A stretch of 32,000 nt of DNA from Candidatus Saccharimonadota bacterium (GTDB taxonomy: Bacteria; Patescibacteriota; Gracilibacteria; BD1-5; UBA6164), in assembly GCA_965229705.1 (NCBI GenBank), contig OZ245922.1, positions 240,001 through 272,000 of the forward strand, in the 5' to 3' direction. This document shows, piece by piece, positions 7,739 through 31,054 of this stretch (the stretch's first letter is position 1; each line of letters starts with the position of its first letter). Made by a program: the position numbers and the translations under genes. Under the pieces are notes generated by a model. That model ran no database searches. It saw nothing but the letters and a program-made list of their open reading frames with translations, and was not told the origin of the DNA.

Positions 7739-8518
7739 GTGTTACTCAAAATAGAAATCATCTTACTTTTCGTAAGTTGCCTGTATATTATCTACTTTAC
7801 CCTTGATAGATTAGGAAGTTTTTTGTGGTGAAAACATCAACGCAAGCTCAGAAAATATGCTCGAGCATGAGAGAGTGAACAGTATGGAGAGACGGATATA
7901 AAAACTCCAGAATCAGACATCCAAGAAGAAGATGTATCTGCAAGCTCAGATACAAAGCATACAGCCAGAATACGAGAAATCATCAAGCGCTGCGAAGTGC
8001 ATATCTCACGAAACTCTATTGAGCTTGCGAAAAATCTTATTGTGCAAGGCTTATCGCTTGATAAAAATCATACAAAACTCAACCTGCTACTGGCAGATGT
8101 ATATGAAAAACAAGAGAAATACCAAAACGCAGAGTATATATATAGAGACATGCTTGATGAGTCTCCAGATGATACTTATATATTGTGAAGACTTGGGAAT
8201 ATATACTATATCAGAGGAAAGATAGAAAAATCTCTTTCTTGCTATCAGCGTGCTCTGAAAAAAGACAAAAACAATATTGAGATCCTCGATATACTCGCGC
8301 ATCTTTTGGCAGAACACTGAGACTATGATGCCTGCGTTACAACTGCCTGTGCATTTCTCAAGCAAAAACCACGAGACGGAGAAAAACTCTCTTTGAAATG
8401 ATATGCTCTTGAAAAACTCTGAAAACCATCAGAAGCTCTCACGAATTATAGGCTCGTTTTAGAGGTTGATCCATATAATAAAGAGATACTTTCAAGAGTA
8501 AAAAAACTTGAGTCATAA
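7739..8518 (+). CDS. membrane-anchored TPR-repeat protein
   Basis: The frame of track ORF 7997..8188 extends in code 25 from GTG 7739 to TAA 8516-8518. There is no in-frame ATG after the upstream stop at 7688-7690. N-terminal TM helix LLKIEIILLFVSCLYIIYFTL, then TPR-like repeats (AEYIYRDML, KSLSCYQRALKKD, EALTNYRLVLEVDP). The start codon is uncertain. Confidence 0.6.
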
Positions 8519-8620
8519 GCAGTCTCTGAGAAACAAAAAATTTCTAATCCTCTCTGGATCTATCGAGCCATCTCTCCTTTGAAAAAGGAGAAAAAAAAGA
8601 AGTTTCTCAGAACTTCCTTA
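8517..8620 (+). repeat. R1: ~100-bp inverted-repeat-bounded intergenic element (MITE-like or structured RNA)
   Basis: About 90% identical to 30869..30973. Ends TCTGAGAAAC (8525-8534) and GTTTCTCAGA (8602-8611) are perfect inverted repeats inside a ~19-bp imperfect TIR. Internal hairpins at 8556-8569 and 8573-8591. The 5' end abuts the TAA of the TPR gene. Confidence 0.8.
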
Positions 8621-8726
8621 ACAAGTTTTTTACACCCGAGGAAGTTTTTGACAGAAAAAAAAAGATGCAGTTGAGATGTCTGTATTTTTTTTTACTCTCA
8701 GTGCATATTTTATACCTTTTTACAAT

Positions 8727-10390: not shown

Positions 10391-10622
10391 AAACTTTGAG
10401 AAATGAGGTACTCTCGTATATAAGAGACCGGTCTCGAAAACGTAGAAATCAATCCGTTCTGGTTCTATCGAACCATATCTCCTTTCAAAAAAAGAGACAA
10501 ATCTATCTTCCCCTCCCTTACTAAGGGAGGGGCTAGGGGAGGGGTGTATATTTTAGAGATGACTTGCTAGAGTCAGAGTAGATGAGAGATTCTTTGTACT
10601 TCTCAGAAATTCTCTGAGGAAG
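10391..10622 (+). repeat. R2: long composite member of the same element family in the valS leader
   Basis: Left end CTTTGAGAAAT (10394-10404). Palindrome module (10424-10435), hairpin module GGTTCTATCGAACC..TCTCCTTTCAAAAAAAGAGA (10461-10497), GC-rich hairpin/G-tract (10510-10544) and a degenerate right end CTTCTCAGAAA (10599-10609). Confidence 0.6.
10510..10544 (+). other. GC-rich hairpin overlapping a four-G-tract (G-quadruplex-type) motif
   Basis: CCCCTCCCTT (10510-10519), loop ACT, AAGGGAGGGG (10523-10532): a 10-bp stem. GGGAGGGGCTAGGGGAGGGG (10525-10544) has four G-runs of at least 3 separated by 1-3 nt. Confidence 0.7.
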
Positions 10623-13456: not shown

Positions 13457-14551
13457 ATGAAAATAGGTATTGTCTGACTTCCAAATGTTGGAAAATCAAC
13501 GCTCTTCAATGCGCTGACAAAAAATTATGCAGCAGATGCGCAAAACTTTCCATTTTGTACTATTGAACCAAATGTTGGTATCGTGAATGTGCACGATGAA
13601 AGACTGGAAAAAATCCAAAAAGCAGTCCAAGGAGCAAAGGTCATTCCTGCGAGCTGTGAGTTCACTGATATTGCCTGAATCGTGAAATGAGCCAGTGAAT
13701 GAGAGTGAATGGGGAATAAATTTCTTGCTAATATACGAGAAGCAAGTGCTATCTTGCAAGTAGTACGAGTTTTTGAGAACAATGATATTACTCATGTTCA
13801 TGGGGAGCTGAATCCCAAAAATGATATCGAGGTTATCAATGCTGAGCTCATACTTGCAGATATCGAAACTCTAACAAAAAGAATTGCTGGAGAGTCAAAA
13901 AAAGCTCGATGAGATAAGGATATTGCCGCAAAGGTGGCAACGCTCCAAAAGACTCTTGCAGAGCTTGAGTCGGGAAAACTTGCATGAGACCTCAGTCTGA
14001 GTGATGATGAGCGACTCCATCTCCAAGACTCTCATCTCCTCACAAATAAGCAGTTTATATATGCCTGTAATGTGAGTGAGGATATGATGGACGCGAGTGA
14101 GCAGGAACTCAAAAAATATATGTGATTCAATACTGATACTGAACTCAAAGGGAGAGTCGTGCCGATTTGCGCGAAACTCGAAGAAGATATGATAGAGATG
14201 TCGGGGGAAGAGAGGAAGGCGTTTCTGGATGATCTGGGTCTTGTTTCCACCGGTTTAGATAGACTCATACAAGCCAGTTATGATGCTCTTGGCCTTCAGT
14301 ACTACTTTACTGCTGGAGAGCAAGAGGTTCGAGCGTGGACAGTAAAGAGATGAGCAACTGCTTCCGAGGCAGCATGAGTGATACATACAGATTTTGAAAA
14401 GTGATTTATCAAAGCTGATGTCGCTCTTTGGTCTGATATTGTGGAGTTTTGATGATGGTCTTGAGCGCGAGAAAATGGAAAAGTAAGACTAGAGGGAAAA
14501 GACTATATTGTTCAGGATGGAGATGTCATCCTCTTTAAGTTTCAGAGTTAG
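13457..14551 (+). CDS. ychF: ribosome-binding ATPase YchF
   Basis: [21 protein letters not shown] (P-loop Gly is TGA), [47 protein letters not shown]. Fragments 13709.. and 14159.. are in frame. TAG 14549-14551. Confidence 0.93.
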
Positions 14552-14697
14552 GAGAATGTAGAAAAACTTCGTATTTCATCGTCAAAATCTAATATTGTCT
14601 TCAAACAAGTACAGTGAATACGCTTATTTCATCCAAATTGATTTTTCCTTGAATTACTTGTTTTTACACATTTTCTATTTTTCTATGCTTCCCTAGA
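14552..14697 (+). repeat. copy A of a ~145-nt structured intergenic element (candidate ncRNA or 3'-UTR element)
   Basis: Aligns without gaps to 21704..21849, roughly 85-90% identical by eye. Begins immediately after the ychF TAG. Nested inverted repeats 14557-14566/14678-14687 and 14584-14597/14634-14645. Confidence 0.8.
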
Positions 14698-14750
14698 GCC
14701 CACTTTTTTTTACAAACCTCCTATTGCTTGCAAAACTTTGCAAGAAAAAA

Positions 14751-15677
14751 TCATTCACTATACCTACTTGGATCAATACGGAGACAGTTTTTTGCTATTT
14801 CCTTTGTATAGCACTTTTGTTCAAAGCGAACTCTTGGCGATGATAGGAGAAAATAAGGATTTTTTGGAATATCTATTTTTTTCAGATACAGCTCAGGATG
14901 CTTCATAAGTATATCATCTACTACTTCTTCATTTTCTTCTGGGGCAAGCGTACAAGTTGTATAAAGCATTTCTCAGCCAGACTTGAGAAGTCTCGAGAGA
15001 CTCTGGCATATATCTTTTTGTCGATGAGAGTTTTGTTGTACATGTTCCAGAGACCAAGATGCAAGAAATTTTGTGTTATGCAGACTGAGTCATCACTCTC
15101 CACTACAAGGAGCATCTATCAAAATTATATCATAGAAAGCATGGTTTTTTTGAGCAAACTTTTGCGCTGTTTGTTGTAGAGGTTTTACATTTTTGGCTCA
15201 GAGCTTGAGGAGGTTGTATCAGAGTTTTTTATAGCGTATGGGATGAGGTTCGAGAGCGTGTATTTCTGCACTTGGAAACAGCATAGAAAGCAGTGAAGTT
15301 TTTCCTCACGGTGCTGCGCAGGCATCAAGAATCTTGAGATTTGCATCTGGATACTTGGTAAATATATGTGCTGGAAGTTGGCTAGAGAGTCATTGGAGAT
15401 ATATTTTTCACTGCTTGTATATATCGAGATTCCAGAGCGTTTTCTCTCAAACATCTTCCTGCAAAATATATGCATATCTTGGGAAAGATATTTTTGTGAA
15501 AGGTATATGATGCTTCTCAAGTGCTTGTTCTACTTCTTCAGCTGATGATGTGAGTGTATTGACCCGAAAACTTACTGGTCTTTGAGCTTGCTCAAAAACT
15601 TGTTGCAAACGACTCATCTCTTTTTGAGAGTAGATCTCAACCAGTCGAGACGCAAGATCTGGAGGAAGTATGTTCAT
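14751..15677 (-). CDS. rRNA (cytosine-C5)-methyltransferase, NOL1/NOP2/Sun (RsmB/RsmF-like) family
   Basis: Fragments 15447..15677 and 14751..14969 are in frame (927 nt). Code-25 reading gives KIYLQ-G-LSSQLPA...KILDACAAP-G-GKTS...ILIDAPCSGE...MLYTTCTLAPEENEEVV. It lacks the N-terminal NusB-like domain of full-length RsmB. Confidence 0.88.
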
Positions 15678-20800: not shown

Positions 20801-21703
20801 ATGAACCCAAAAAATATACCAGAATGGTATACGAGATATAGAGACTTTATTGAGAAAAGTATCACAAAACATCTAGATACCTATCTTGCTATACCTATGT
20901 CTGTACCACTGAATGATTTTAAAGAGATTATTTACTACTCCTGTCAATGAGGGAAAAAACTGCGAGCTATTTTGGCTCTTGAGTTTTATCTCCAGCTTTC
21001 TGGAAGAGATTTTTCAGATATTCGGCAAGACGATGATATTGTGAAGCTTTGTATTGCACTAGAGATGATACATGCTTTTTCTCTCATTCATGATGATCTT
21101 CCTTGTATGGACAATGATGAACTCCGTCGTGGAGAACCCACTGTTTGGAAAAAGTATGGCGAATACCAGGCAGTACTTGTTGGTGACATGCTTAATTCTC
21201 TGTGTTTTGAAATACTCTCAGATATAAAAAATCCTGAAATCTCGCAAAGAATAGCCAAACTCATATCACATAGTGTTGGGTTTTATGGAATGATAGGAGG
21301 ACAGGTAGAAGATTTGTTTTTTGAGAGAAACATCTCACATTTAGATATTGATACGCTCAAAAGTTTACATGGAAAAAAGACCGGAAAACTCATAGAGGCA
21401 TCTATTCTCTGATGAGTCATACTCTCTGGACAAATATCAAATATTGAAATATTTGGTGATTTTGGCCGTAAGCTCTGATTGGCATTTCAGGTAAAAGATG
21501 ATCTTCTTGATGTTGAGGGAACACCAGAAGAAACCGGAAAAAGTGTTTGAGGAGAAGAAAAAGGTTTTGTATATCTCTTATGAACTCTTGCAAGTAAGAA
21601 GATTCTGGCAGATATCATTGCTGAGTGCAAACTGATTGCCGGAAAACTTGGTTCTCAAAAGATAGATTTTATTGTTGAATATGTTGAGGCAAGAAAAAAA
21701 TAA
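20801..21703 (+). CDS. ispA: polyprenyl (farnesyl/geranylgeranyl) diphosphate synthase
   Basis: -G-GKKLRA, LEMIHAFSLIHDDLPCMDNDELRRG (first DDxxD), GKKTGKLI, FQVKDDLLD (second DDxxD). In frame with fragment 20972..21412. TAA 21701-21703. Confidence 0.9.
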
Positions 21704-21849
21704 GGGAAATGCGGAAAAACTTCGTATTTCGTCGTCAAAATCCAACATTGTCTTCAAACACGTACAATCAGTACGCTTATTTCAGCCAAGTTGGTTTTTC
21801 CTTGAACTACTTGTTTTTACACATTTCCTATTTTTCCGTGCTTTCTAAG
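21704..21849 (+). repeat. copy B of the ~145-nt structured intergenic element
   Basis: Begins immediately after the TAA of the polyprenyl synthase gene and ends at the tatD stop (21851). Stems 21710-21719/21831-21840 and 21737-21750/21787-21798 are maintained by compensatory changes relative to copy A. Confidence 0.8.
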
Positions 21850-21850
21850 A

Positions 21851-22663
21851 TTATGGAGAGAAACAACTTATACTATTTTTATATACTGTCTGCTTTACCT
21901 CTTCTGCTTTTTCTGTTCGGAGTTCTATAAGCTTTTCTAAAACATATTGCGTGAAGCCAGGATGATTTTCTTGTTTTCCTCTATATGGTTCAGGAGTCAG
22001 ATATGGAGCGTCTGTTTCAACCATAATATGCCTAAGAGGAATAGTGCGAGCGGTTTCTTGAATATCTTTTGCATTTTTAAAGGTGAGTATTCCCCCAAAA
22101 GCAATCTTGCATTGAGGAGCGAAGTCTATGAGTTTTTTCGCAAAAGTGAGGTTTTCACTATAACAGTGAAATACAAAATTTGCATAATTCATATTTTTGA
22201 GAATATCAAAAATATCTTCAGCAGCATTTCTATTATGGATTACCAGAGGGAGATCAAGCTTCTTGGCAAGCGTGATATGAGCGCAAAAAAAGTTTTTTTG
22301 TATGTCTATGATCTCGTTTTTACTCATACCTGATTCGTCACTGAGAGAGTTGAGCCAGTGATAGTCGAGTCCTGATTCTCAGATGGCGACAATATATTTT
22401 TTGTTTTTTTGGTACAACTGTTCTAATACCTTGAGAGTATTATCTATATTTTTATGATACTGGAGTACCTCACATGGATGAATTCCTATAACCGCTTTCA
22501 CTCATGTATTTTTTTTTGCGAGCTGTATACATGTCTCTGAGCTCTCGATATCTGTAGCAATACTATTGAGGTATGTTCATCATGATGCAAAAAAATTCTC
22601 AAGAAGTGCCTCTTGAGATGTGTGTTTTGAGAGGTAGGGGTGACAGTGGGTATCGTAGAGCAT
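21851..22663 (-). CDS. tatD: TatD family metal-dependent hydrolase/DNase
   Basis: Fragment 21851..22327 extends upstream in code 25 to ATG 22661-22663: MLYDTHCHPY, AVIGIHP, VAI-G-ESGLDYHW, LPLVIHNR, HCYS, ETDAPYL. Confidence 0.9.
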
Positions 22664-23295: not shown

Positions 23296-23415
23296 TTAAG
23301 AAATCTCTGAAAAATAGAAAAATCTTGTGTAAGAGACCGGTCTCAAGCCCTTAAAATAGATGACTCGAGACCGGTCTCGAGAAAACAAAAATGACTTTCT
23401 TAGAGCTTCCTTAAG
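23296..23415 (+). repeat. R3: family member whose core is replaced by two GAGACCGGTCTC palindromes
   Basis: Its ends TTAAGAAATCTCTGAAAAAT and CTTTCTTAGAGCTTCCTTAAG match the R1/R4 ends. The core carries palindromes at 23333-23344 and 23364-23381. Lies between uvrC and the next minus-strand gene. Confidence 0.7.
23364..23381. repeat. 18-bp perfect palindrome CTCGAGACCGGTCTCGAG
   Basis: Self-complementary over 18 bp. Its 12-bp core GAGACCGGTCTC recurs at 23333-23344 and 10424-10435, three copies in an AT-rich 32-kb window. Confidence 0.9.
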
Positions 23416-30868: not shown

Positions 30869-30973
30869 TTAGGAAGCTCTGAAAAACAAAAAAATTCTAA
30901 TCCTCTCTGACTCTATCGAGCCATCTCTCCTTTGAAAAAGGAGAGAAAAAGGTGTTTCTCAGAGCTTCCTTAA
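30869..30973 (+). repeat. R4: ~100-bp inverted-repeat-bounded intergenic element
   Basis: TTAGGAAGCTCTGAAAAAC at the left end versus GTTTCTCAGAGCTTCCTTAAC at the right end (17 of 19 positions complementary). Internal hairpins at 30909-30922 and TCTCTCCTT/AAGGAGAGA. Confidence 0.8.
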
Positions 30974-31054
30974 CTACATTTTGTATTTTTGTTGTTACTA
31001 TATAAGAAAAAATATTTGCTAAAAATAAATATTTTATTAAAAATACATTTTTTT

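What the first reader, a model, noticed from the sequence alone, without database searches (positions are those of the whole stretch)
14552..14697. A ~145-nt element repeated after two unrelated genes shows compensatory base-pair changes, suggesting an undescribed structured RNA
14552-14697 aligns gap-free with 21704-21849, roughly 85-90% identical by eye. Each copy starts on the nucleotide after a stop codon (ychF TAG; polyprenyl synthase TAA).
- Outer stem: UGUAGAAAAA (14557-14566) pairs with UUUUUCUAUG (14678-14687). In copy B this is UGCGGAAAAA (21710-21719) with UUUUUCCGUG (21831-21840). Two adjacent pairs switch from U-A, A-U to C-G, G-C.
- Inner stem: AAAAUC-u-AAU-a-UUG (14584-14597) pairs with CAA-AUU-GAUUUU (14634-14645). 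In copy B, U593:A637 becomes C746:G790 and U588:A641 becomes U741.G794.
- So 7 of about 20 substitutions sit in stems and preserve pairing.
- The G.U wobbles exist only on the + strand, which implies an RNA made in the sense of the upstream genes.
- It is not protein-coding. In the only long frame copy A has TAG at codon 2, and essentially all substitutions would be non-synonymous.
I do not recognise it as any known RNA family.
Basis: seen in the sequence. Interest (0 to 1): 0.78.

Follow-up and report, generated by a model that had tools for sequence, protein, structure and literature searches.

The report
A mobile hairpin repeat (MITE)
The two copies are insertions of a small non-coding jumping element that folds into a long hairpin, which explains both the matched base changes and the position right after stop codons; it is a new family of an ordinary kind of element, not a new RNA gene.

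Summary
The repeat is real.

It is a mobile DNA insertion of the MITE type, not a demonstrated RNA gene.
- Copy B is flanked by a perfect 4-bp direct repeat (TAAG, which contains the TAA stop). Copy A has TTAG/CTAG.
- Four copies of a young family in another Gracilibacteria population have perfect, different 4-bp duplications.
- Three relatives have only 3-6 nt at the syntenic polyprenyl-synthase|tatD junction.
- A second insertion site (ftsE|VTC) is occupied in one clade and empty in three relatives.

A better hairpin pairs the 5' arm with a proximal 3' arm. It is conserved with strong covariation in 17 copies, from code-25 Gracilibacteria and from standard-code bacteria. There is no wobble-pair asymmetry between strands and no consistent orientation relative to genes. 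Rfam has no match. No transposase was found.

A second repeat family in the window shares the termini.

Verdict: a new member of a known kind, of modest interest. Why the whole hairpin and its asymmetric internal loops are so conserved is not explained.

The parts
14548..14551 (.). Left 4-bp flank of copy A (TTAG). It contains the ychF stop codon TAG (14549-14551).
   Evidence: Matches the right flank CTAG at 3 of 4 positions.
14552..14692 (+). Copy A, full mobile unit (141 nt).
   Evidence: Gap-free 86.5% identity to 21705-21845. Similarity ends at the flanking 4-mers.
14552..14675 (+). Copy A long hairpin. P1a 14552-14560 pairs with 14667-14675. G.A mismatch at 14561/14666. P1b AAAAAC 14562-14567 pairs with GTTTTT 14660-14665. 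P2 14584-14597 pairs with 14634-14645. P3 14608-14612 pairs with 14618-14622 (decayed to 3 pairs).
   Evidence: Folds, pair tables, covariation on 17 copies.
14561..14583 (+). Near-invariant 5' block GAAAAACTTCGTATTTC(N)TCGTC. It holds two TTCGT(A/C) direct repeats 10 bp apart.
   Evidence: Invariant columns in alignment A2, across code-25 and code-11 hosts.
14646..14666 (+). Conserved 3' block TCCTYGAAYTACTYGTTTTT(A/G). It faces the 5' block as an asymmetric internal loop.
14678..14692 (+). Distal arm, which is the right terminal inverted repeat of copy A (TTTTTCTATGCTTCC). It pairs with 14552-14566.
   Evidence: Its reverse complement GGAAGCATAGAAAAA resembles the termini of the second repeat family.
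14693..14696 (.). Right 4-bp flank of copy A (CTAG).
21701..21704 (.). Left target-site duplication of copy B (TAAG). It contains the polyprenyl synthase stop codon TAA (21701-21703).
21705..21845 (+). Copy B, full mobile unit (141 nt). Hairpin 21705-21828, distal arm / right terminal repeat 21831-21845.
21846..21849 (.). Right target-site duplication of copy B (TAAG), identical to 21701-21704.
   Evidence: Removing the unit plus one TAAG leaves tatD TAA - TC - TTA (polyprenyl synthase stop), a 2-nt spacer. Relatives have 3-6 nt.
13457..14551 (+). ychF (GTPase), upstream of copy A.
   Evidence: Pfam YchF-GTPase_C and MMR_HSR1.
14721..15677 (-). RsmB/F-type rRNA methyltransferase gene, convergent with ychF.
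   Evidence: Pfam Methyltr_RsmB-F.
20801..21703 (+). Polyprenyl synthase gene, upstream of copy B.
   Evidence: Pfam polyprenyl_synt.
21851..22663 (-). tatD hydrolase gene, convergent with the polyprenyl synthase gene.
   Evidence: Pfam TatD_DNase; homologues.

Best explanation
Both copies are insertions of a 141-nt non-autonomous transposable element, a miniature inverted-repeat element (MITE). It belongs to a family found in TGA=Gly Gracilibacteria and in some standard-code bacteria.

Anatomy, as shown by the sequences:
- GG/GA termini.
- A 15-bp terminal inverted repeat: 5' arm GGAAATGCGGAAAAA, right end ...TTTTTCCGTGCTTTC.
- A second, proximal copy of the right arm. With the 5' arm it closes a ~124-nt imperfect hairpin.
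- The hairpin consists of a variable 9-bp P1a, a purine-purine mismatch, an invariant AAAAAC/GTTTTT helix, a near-invariant asymmetric internal loop, a variable ~12-bp P2, and a 5-bp P3.

Mechanism, inferred:
- A transposase supplied in trans binds the conserved subterminal blocks. These include two TTCGT(A/C) repeats one helical turn apart.
- It cuts at the termini and inserts into TA-rich 4-bp targets with a 4-bp stagger.
- Repair duplicates the target.
- TAA/TAG-containing 4-mers at gene ends are among the few tolerated targets in this compact genome. The duplication regenerates the stop codon, so the element appears to start right after it.
- The 'compensatory' changes reflect co-evolution or conversion of inverted arms, or selection for a fold-back form. 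This could act on the single-stranded DNA or transcript of either strand.
- When read through as a 3' UTR the element would form a long hairpin, as known hairpin MITEs do.
For: Target-site duplications.
- Copy B has TAAG/TAAG and copy A has TTAG/CTAG.
- In the ~95%-identical Ga0209373 family the similarity ends exactly at perfect 4-bp direct repeats that differ per copy: TAAA, TATA, ATAA, TCTA.
- The chance of at least 5 of 6 perfect matches is about 1e-6, even allowing 9 boundary choices per copy.

Empty sites.
- Synteny (SecDF-ABC-UppS-polyprenyl_synt | TatD) is kept in L130, L131 and L133.
- The two convergent stops there are 3 nt (L131) and 6 nt (L133) apart. The window has 147 nt.
- At the ftsE|VTC junction, L022, L093 and L135 are occupied. 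L139, L137 and L138 are empty (95, 91 and 87% FtsE amino-acid identity to the L093 protein).

Terminal inverted repeat. Unit positions 1-15 pair with 127-141, with two double changes between A and B. Distal arms are significant in the window and Ga0209373 families and borderline in L006.

Multicopy.
- 2 copies in the window.
- 5 distinct insertion sites (4 with both ends intact) in the Ga0209373 family.
- 3 contigs of one MAG.
- 2 copies in L123.
- Three contigs end inside the element.

Non-coding. No Rfam family.

No strand signal.
- Isolated G.U on + vs on -: 4 vs 3.
- Orientation relative to genes is mixed, including antisense inside an S10/spc ribosomal-protein operon.

Decay. Individual copies decay: copy A's P3 and duplication are degraded, and L119 has a broken conserved block.

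Shared termini. A second repeat family in the window has termini GGAAGCTCTGARAAAC and TA-rich 4-mer flanks.

Literature. A MITE review lists as typical: length <500 bp, terminal inverted repeats, direct repeats in young copies that wane with time, AT-rich intergenic or 3'-UTR insertion, and stem-loop transcripts (PMC10969869).
Against: - No autonomous element or transposase with matching ends was found. The 33-nt-only hits are chance matches inside a gene. Plasmid and phage collections gave no match.
- The pattern of conservation is unusual for plain transposase binding sites in double-stranded DNA. The outermost 9 bp and P2 vary freely but stay complementary, while asymmetric internal-loop blocks are invariant across phyla.
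- The copy shared by L022 and L093 is 117/119 identical, while third codon positions of the adjacent gene are only about 82% identical (P about 2e-8 under neutrality). This could mean host-level selection.
- Duplications cannot be recognised in the older, diverged copies.
- L126 is ambiguous.
Confidence: 0.8

Rival explanations
1. The element is primarily a structured RNA (3'-UTR module, processed small RNA or terminator substitute), made in the sense of the upstream genes and kept by selection on RNA pairing.
For: - Strong covariation in P1a, P2 and P3 across 17 copies.
- Invariant asymmetric internal loops.
- Folding z-scores of -2.2 and -3.6 on the + strand.
- The L022/L093 copy is far more conserved than synonymous sites.
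- Many copies sit in 3' UTRs.
- Some MITEs are reported to give rise to small RNAs, or to be processed in mRNAs (PMC10969869).
Against: - Target-site duplications and empty sites show it arrives by insertion.
- The quoted outer stem is the terminal inverted repeat.
- There is no G.U vs A.C strand asymmetry.
- In 5 sites only the opposite strand can be co-transcribed (L102, L006, L010 and both L123 copies). In 3 sites it is the + strand.
- There is no room for a promoter of its own outside the unit.
- Copies decay.
- In L093 a canonical terminator follows the element, so the element is not the terminator there.
Confidence: 0.12
2. The element is mobilised as single-stranded DNA by a structure-specific enzyme that recognises the folded hairpin. 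Models are HUH/Y1 transposases as for IS200/IS605-derived elements, or REP elements with their RAYT transposases.
For: Variable but complementary stems with invariant asymmetric loops are what structure-specific recognition of a folded strand predicts. The hairpin spans almost the whole unit.
Against: - Per-copy variable 4-bp direct repeats. From established knowledge, IS200/IS605 and REP elements make no duplication and use a fixed tetranucleotide.
- No such enzyme gene was noted next to any copy in the ORF lists and Pfam-annotated gene tables inspected.
- The element is far longer than REP.
Confidence: 0.05
3. The element's main role is as a transcription terminator, possibly bidirectional, placed between convergent genes.
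For: - At least 7 of 17 sites lie between convergent genes.
- A T-run follows the hairpin in most copies.
- Both copies inside an operon (L123) are antisense.
Against: - The T-run is the TTTTTC box of the right terminal repeat.
- The stem is AT-rich with large internal loops.
- Sense copies between co-directional genes exist (L125, L122).
- The L093 copy is followed by the native GC-rich terminator, which is also present at the empty sites.
Confidence: 0.05

Closest known systems
Correia elements (CREE/NEMIS) of Neisseria
   Same: - Small (~100-200 bp), non-coding and multicopy.
- Terminal inverted repeats and a short TA-containing target duplication.
- The whole element can fold as a hairpin in transcripts, and RNase III cuts at the inverted repeats (PMC10969869).
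- No cognate transposase is known (my own knowledge).
   Different: - No sequence similarity.
- The duplication here is 4 bp, whereas Correia duplicates TA (my own knowledge).
- Here the right end carries two tandem copies of the terminal arm.
- Here the subterminal blocks are conserved across phyla.
- Promoter or IHF sites were not found or tested here.
ERIC / IRU repeats of Enterobacteriaceae and Vibrionaceae
   Same: - ~127-bp imperfect palindromes (size and palindromic form from my own knowledge) in transcribed intergenic regions.
- Both orientations occur.
- Conserved across genera.
- Insertion at 3' ends of genes alters mRNA stability (PMC10969869).
   Different: Unrelated sequence and different hosts. 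Clear 4-bp duplications and empty sites are shown here.
QMITE2 of Coxiella; RUP, BOX and SPRITE of Streptococcus pneumoniae
   Same: AT-rich hairpin-forming MITEs, found mostly in 3' UTRs or intergenic clusters. Several families coexist in one genome (PMC10969869). The window likewise has two families.
   Different: No sequence relation. Their RNA-level roles (small RNAs, terminator-like) are documented or proposed there; none was tested here.
IS5-group insertion sequences and their MITE derivatives
   Same: A 4-bp TA-rich target duplication and GG/GA termini. From memory of the ISfinder family table, IS5 group elements have a 4-bp direct repeat, a YTAR-type target and ends Ga/g. Observed flanks TTAG, CTAG and TTAA fit this.
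   Different: - Other observed duplications (TAAG, TAAA, TATA, ATAA, TCTA) do not fit YTAR.
- No IS5-type transposase or full-length IS with these ends was found.
- Membership is therefore not established.
REP / REPIN elements with RAYT transposases
   Same: Intergenic, multicopy, hairpin-forming, with structure conserved more than sequence.
   Different: From established knowledge, REPs are ~20-40 nt and GC-rich, make no target duplication, and are linked to a RAYT gene. None of this is seen here.

Membership tests
MITE (non-autonomous DNA transposon) | Short (<500 bp) with no transposase or other conserved coding capacity | tested here: met
   141-nt unit. Six-frame translations show no start codon or consistent frame, and indels between families break frames.
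MITE (non-autonomous DNA transposon) | Terminal inverted repeats | tested here: met
   Unit positions 1-15 pair with 127-141. In copy B, 14 of the 15 positions pair if G.T is allowed, and 11 of 15 are Watson-Crick. Distal arms are significant in the window and Ga0209373 families and borderline in L006.
MITE (non-autonomous DNA transposon) | Flanking direct repeats (target-site duplication) that differ between copies | tested here: met
   TAAG/TAAG (copy B), TTAG/CTAG (copy A), TAAA, TATA, ATAA and TCTA in four Ga0209373 copies. Chance probability about 1e-6. Not recognisable in older copies.
MITE (non-autonomous DNA transposon) | Multiple dispersed copies per genome | tested here: met
   2 copies in 32 kb of the window, 5 distinct sites in one metagenome family, 3 contigs of MAG CAYQWU, and contig breaks inside the element.
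MITE (non-autonomous DNA transposon) | Presence/absence at orthologous sites | tested here: met
   polyprenyl_synt|tatD junction: 3-6 nt in relatives vs 147 nt in the window. ftsE|VTC junction: occupied in L022, L093 and L135; empty in L139, L137 and L138.
MITE (non-autonomous DNA transposon) | A cognate autonomous IS with the same ends | tested here: inconclusive
   None among 139 fetched loci, nor in the plasmid or phage collections.
Any Rfam RNA family | Covariance-model match | tested here: not met
   0 hits at gathering thresholds in the window. Only chance-level hits at E<=10 around copy A.
Strand-specific structured RNA | Compensatory base-pair changes | tested here: met
   21 of 38 pairs change on both sides. 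Covariation score 0.338 vs 0.125 in shuffles and at most 0.152 in slid controls.
Strand-specific structured RNA | G.U pairs on one strand only, and constant orientation relative to transcription | tested here: not met
   In the arm alignments, G.U on + is 18 and A.C on + is 44. For isolated mismatches the count is 4 vs 3. Orientation is mixed.
Strand-specific structured RNA | A discrete transcript | not testable with these tools
   No expression data are available.
IS200/IS605-derived elements or REP/RAYT | No target duplication, a fixed flanking tetranucleotide, and a linked Y1 transposase | tested here: not met
   The duplicated 4-mers vary between copies. No such gene was noted next to any copy in the ORF lists and Pfam-annotated gene tables inspected.
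Integron attC site | RYYYAAC and GTTRRRY cores at the two ends, cassette arrays, and a nearby integron integrase | tested here: not met
   GAAAAAC and GTTTTT(G/A) do not fit the cores and lie 9 bp inside the ends. The flanking genes are syntenic housekeeping genes.
IS5 group (as source of the transposase) | 4-bp duplication of a YTAR target, GG/GA ends, and an IS5-type DDE transposase | tested here: inconclusive
   The duplication length and the termini fit, but only some targets fit YTAR. No transposase was found. The family criteria are recalled from memory.

The most novel reading that the evidence does not exclude
The hairpin itself is a functional single-stranded structure under selection beyond what a transposase needs. 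It could be a mobile RNA module that hosts keep in 3' UTRs or operon spacers, for example as a nuclease, processing or protein-binding site. Or it could be a fold-back DNA substrate for a not yet described, structure-dependent transposition mechanism that still makes 4-bp duplications.

Three observations leave this open:
- Stems that vary but stay complementary.
- Asymmetric loop blocks that are invariant from Gracilibacteria to standard-code bacteria.
- A hairpin that is 98% identical at one orthologous site where synonymous positions are 82% identical.
Probability: 0.2. Interest if true: 0.6.

Novelty: new member of a known kind. Interest (0 to 1): 0.32.

Why it matters
- It removes a false lead. 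The compensatory changes and stop-codon adjacency that looked like a new RNA class are signatures of a small transposon.
- It documents what appears to be an undescribed MITE family, plus a second family with related termini, in recoded (TGA=Gly) Gracilibacteria. Their mobile elements are barely studied.
- It shows the elements wedged between genes only 2-6 nt apart, with the target duplication regenerating the stop codon.
- The family breaks metagenome assemblies.
- It occurs in hosts with different genetic codes. That makes it a possible marker of gene flow between an episymbiont lineage and other bacteria.
- The unusually conserved hairpin with invariant asymmetric loops is a concrete, testable question about how hairpin-type MITEs with no known transposase are recognised.

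Tried and rejected
- Rfam at gathering and at E-value thresholds: nothing. tRNA/tmRNA: none.
- Hammerhead or hairpin-ribozyme reading of the minus-strand CUGACGA...GAAA: rejected. No helix II can be placed, the motif mixes strands, and there is no Rfam support.
- Integron attC: the cores do not fit and the context is housekeeping genes.
- Diversity-generating retroelement template/variable repeat: rejected by inspection. Both copies lie outside ORFs, no reverse-transcriptase gene turned up in the window, and the A-vs-B differences are mostly transitions.
- Coding or stop-codon readthrough extension: the frame differs between copies.
- The 17-mer scan of viral contigs gave 3 chance hits.
- L124, L127, L129 and L033 are chance matches inside a glycosyltransferase-like ORF. 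L079 and L090 are probably chance.
- Plasmid and phage BLAST: no match.
- Search for inverted pairs of the terminal motif bracketing a transposase in the held loci: none. The extra hit in L119 lies inside a cyclase-like ORF.
- Exact look-ups of the window's own proteins failed. The public record translates TGA as W, and the gene is not on record.
- The simple promoter/terminator scan was uninformative.
- Strand assignment from folding energy: the minus strand is often more stable, but only through purine-rich loops, so this is not decisive.
- No covariance model was built, because nhmmer already recovered all copies and found no further ones in the window.

Full report
**Context**

The window has 36% G+C and reads as a gene-dense genome only if TGA is a sense codon. 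All four TGA codons of the window's tatD align with glycine in a homologue. The ychF C-terminus behaves the same way when compared with the E. coli YchF sequence as I recall it. This is genetic code 25, as in Gracilibacteria.

The genes flanking the two copies are confirmed by Pfam:
- ychF (+) and an RsmB/F methyltransferase gene (-) around copy A.
- A polyprenyl synthase gene (+) and tatD (-) around copy B.

Both copies therefore lie between convergent genes.

**Observation check**

The repeat is real: 148 nt, gap-free, 86% identical. Over the 141-nt unit there are 19 differences, 16 of them transitions.

Rfam has no match at gathering or at permissive thresholds. The element is not coding.

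Three corrections:
- The range given for copy B is one base off.
- The thermodynamically and phylogenetically supported closing helix uses a proximal arm (14667-14675).
- The claim that wobble pairs exist only on the + strand does not hold.

**Relatives**

A 17-mer from the invariant block was scanned against representative genomes. A 23-mer pattern was scanned against metagenomes. After nhmmer filtering, the full-length copies were:

| Source | Copies |
|---|---|
| MAG CAYQWU (labelled Peribacteria, but uses TGA as sense) | three contigs |
| Gracilibacteria MAGs L077, L022, L093 | one each |
| Standard-code 'Delongbacteria' MAGs L006, L010 | one each |
| Standard-code shrew-gut contig L123 | two |
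| Metagenome family Ga0209373 (~95% identical) | five distinct sites |

Three contigs end inside the element, which is typical of a repeat that breaks assemblies.

**Structure**

All copies share the same architecture:
- A variable 9-bp outer helix (P1a).
- A purine-purine mismatch.
- An invariant AAAAAC/GTTTTT helix (P1b).
- Near-invariant but asymmetric internal-loop blocks: 5' CTTCGTATTTCTTCGTC, and 3' TCCTCGAACTACTC.
- A variable ~12-bp helix (P2).
- A 5-bp apical hairpin (P3).

On 17 sequences:
- 85.7% of cells pair, vs 72.8+-1.0 in shuffles.
- 21 of 38 pairs change on both sides.
- The covariation score is 0.338, vs 0.125 in shuffles and at most 0.152 in slid controls.

So the fold is conserved by compensatory change.

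**Evidence that it is mobile DNA**

In the young Ga0209373 family the similarity between copies begins and ends exactly at 4-bp direct repeats that differ per copy: TAAA, TATA, ATAA, TCTA.

In the window, copy B (21705-21845) is flanked by TAAG on both sides. The left TAAG contains the TAA stop of the polyprenyl synthase gene. Copy A (14552-14692) has TTAG/CTAG, with the TAG stop of ychF in the left copy. Chance is about 1e-6, even with generous boundary freedom.

Removing copy B and one TAAG leaves the two convergent stop codons 2 nt apart. In three syntenic relatives the same junction is 3 nt (L131), 6 nt (L133), or holds a Fic gene abutting by 3 nt (L130). No copy of the element occurs in those 87 kb.

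A second, independent test used the ftsE-like gene next to the L022/L093 copies. The ftsE|VTC junction is:
- Occupied in L022, L093 (same contig as L136) and L135.
- Empty in L139, L137 and L138 (95%, 91% and 87% FtsE amino-acid identity to the L093 protein).

At the empty sites the stop codon is followed directly by the native terminator hairpin.

Its two double changes between A and B are co-variation of the two ends.

The right end thus carries two tandem versions of the arm. The proximal one closes the hairpin. The distal one, a TTTTTC box plus the complement of the terminus, is the true end. The T-run after the hairpin is this box, not a terminator tail.

Stop-codon adjacency follows from TA-rich 4-bp targets in a genome with almost no intergenic space.

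**Strand and orientation**

- Arm alignments give 18 G.U on + against 44 A.C on + (which are G.U on -).
- Counting only isolated mismatches inside helices gives 4 against 3.
- At least 7 of the 17 sites are between convergent genes.
- Five copies lie antisense between co-directional genes. Two of these are inside the S10/spc ribosomal-protein operon of L123.
- Three copies lie in the sense orientation.

There is no support for an RNA made from one particular strand.

**Second family**

The window also holds a ~105-nt repeat at 8518-8624, 30871-30976 and 23299-23414, with fragments near 10433-10612. Its termini are GGAAGCTCTGARAAAC inverted repeats with TA-rich 4-mer flanks; the flanks are TTAA/TTAA at one copy.

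These termini closely resemble the right ends of copies A and B (reverse complement GGAAGCATAGAAAAA) and the left end of the Ga0209373 family (GGAGCCTCTGAAAAAC). This points to one type of transposase.

No transposase was found:
- None in the window, judged by synteny with annotated relatives.
- None elsewhere.

**What remains odd**

The conservation pattern looks more like a folded nucleic acid than a pair of protein-binding sites. Stems vary but stay complementary, and asymmetric loops are invariant across phyla.

The L022 and L093 copies are 117/119 identical, while third codon positions of the adjacent gene are about 82% identical (P about 2e-8). However, the two copies have different junctions on both sides. 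Independent recent insertions, or conversion from near-identical masters, are therefore as plausible as host-level selection.

Other copies clearly decay.

**Comparison with known elements**

The features match the definition of prokaryotic MITEs in a recent review (PMC10969869):
- Length under 500 bp.
- Terminal inverted repeats.
- Direct repeats in young copies that wane with age.
- AT-rich intergenic or 3'-UTR insertion.
- Stem-loop transcripts.

The element works like the hairpin-type MITEs Correia, ERIC, RUP and QMITE2. No paper in the library links MITEs to Gracilibacteria. A large MITE survey does not mention Gracilibacteria.

The 4-bp duplication and GG/GA ends are compatible with an IS5-group transposase. 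That criterion is from memory, and membership is not established.

**Verdict**

The interpretation as a new structured RNA is only partly supported.

The best explanation is a new MITE family, with confidence about 0.8. This is a new member of a known kind, of modest interest. There is a residual chance of about 0.2 that the conserved hairpin has a function of its own.

Noticed in passing
window 8518-8624, 30871-30976, 23299-23414; fragments 10433-10497 (+) and 10555-10612 (-): A second intergenic repeat family (~105 nt; the two best copies are 93% identical in the core). It has 16-20-bp terminal inverted repeats GGAAGCTCTGARAAAC and TA-rich 4-mer flanks (TTAA/TTAA at 23299-23414). Its termini resemble those of the element studied. 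Weak matches also occur in relative L130 (8358-8427, 11950-12008).
   Followed up: partly
window 21851-22663 (tatD) and protein P0001: The public protein record for this genome's TatD (on a 1.0-Mb NCBI/ENA contig) has W at all four TGA codons, where homologue P0002 has G. So the deposited annotation used code 4 (TGA=Trp), although the alignment supports code 25 (TGA=Gly). P0004 and P0007 show the same pattern.
   Followed up: partly
L123 5249-5382 and 8447-8580: In a standard-code, 32% G+C contig from a shrew-gut co-assembly, two diverged copies sit antisense inside the S10/spc ribosomal-protein operon. Judged by reading the ORF translations, they lie in the L29|S17 and L23|L2 spacers. One ends 10 nt from the L2 start, next to its Shine-Dalgarno sequence.
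   Followed up: partly
L022 3422-3640 vs L093 6985-7140: The copies at the same ftsE|VTC site have a 98.3% identical hairpin but different junctions. L022 has an 11-nt tandem duplication of the left terminus and a ~55-nt longer tail with an extra hairpin. L093 has a very short tail. Third codon positions of ftsE are only about 82% identical.
   Followed up: partly
L126 9331-9474 (minus strand): This copy diverges from its family right after the first 4-6 nt of the tail. Its left flank (TGAA) equals the first 4 nt after the proximal arm. Either the proximal arm was used as the right end, or the tail was deleted and the match is coincidence.
   Followed up: no
L087 879-1013 (minus strand) and right neighbour: The convergent neighbouring ORF ends only 4 nt after the hairpin, inside what would be the element's tail. 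So the last codons of that gene may be supplied by the insertion.
   Followed up: no
L137 403-2743: A relative with an empty ftsE|VTC site carries a reverse transcriptase (RVT_1) next to a bAvd-family gene. This is the gene pair typical of diversity-generating retroelements.
   Followed up: no
L102, L087, L088 (MAG CAYQWU, titled 'Candidatus Peribacteria'): These contigs code far better with TGA as a sense codon (for example 2646 vs 1728 aa in long ORFs). The MAG therefore behaves like a code-25 (Gracilibacteria-type) genome despite its label.
   Followed up: no
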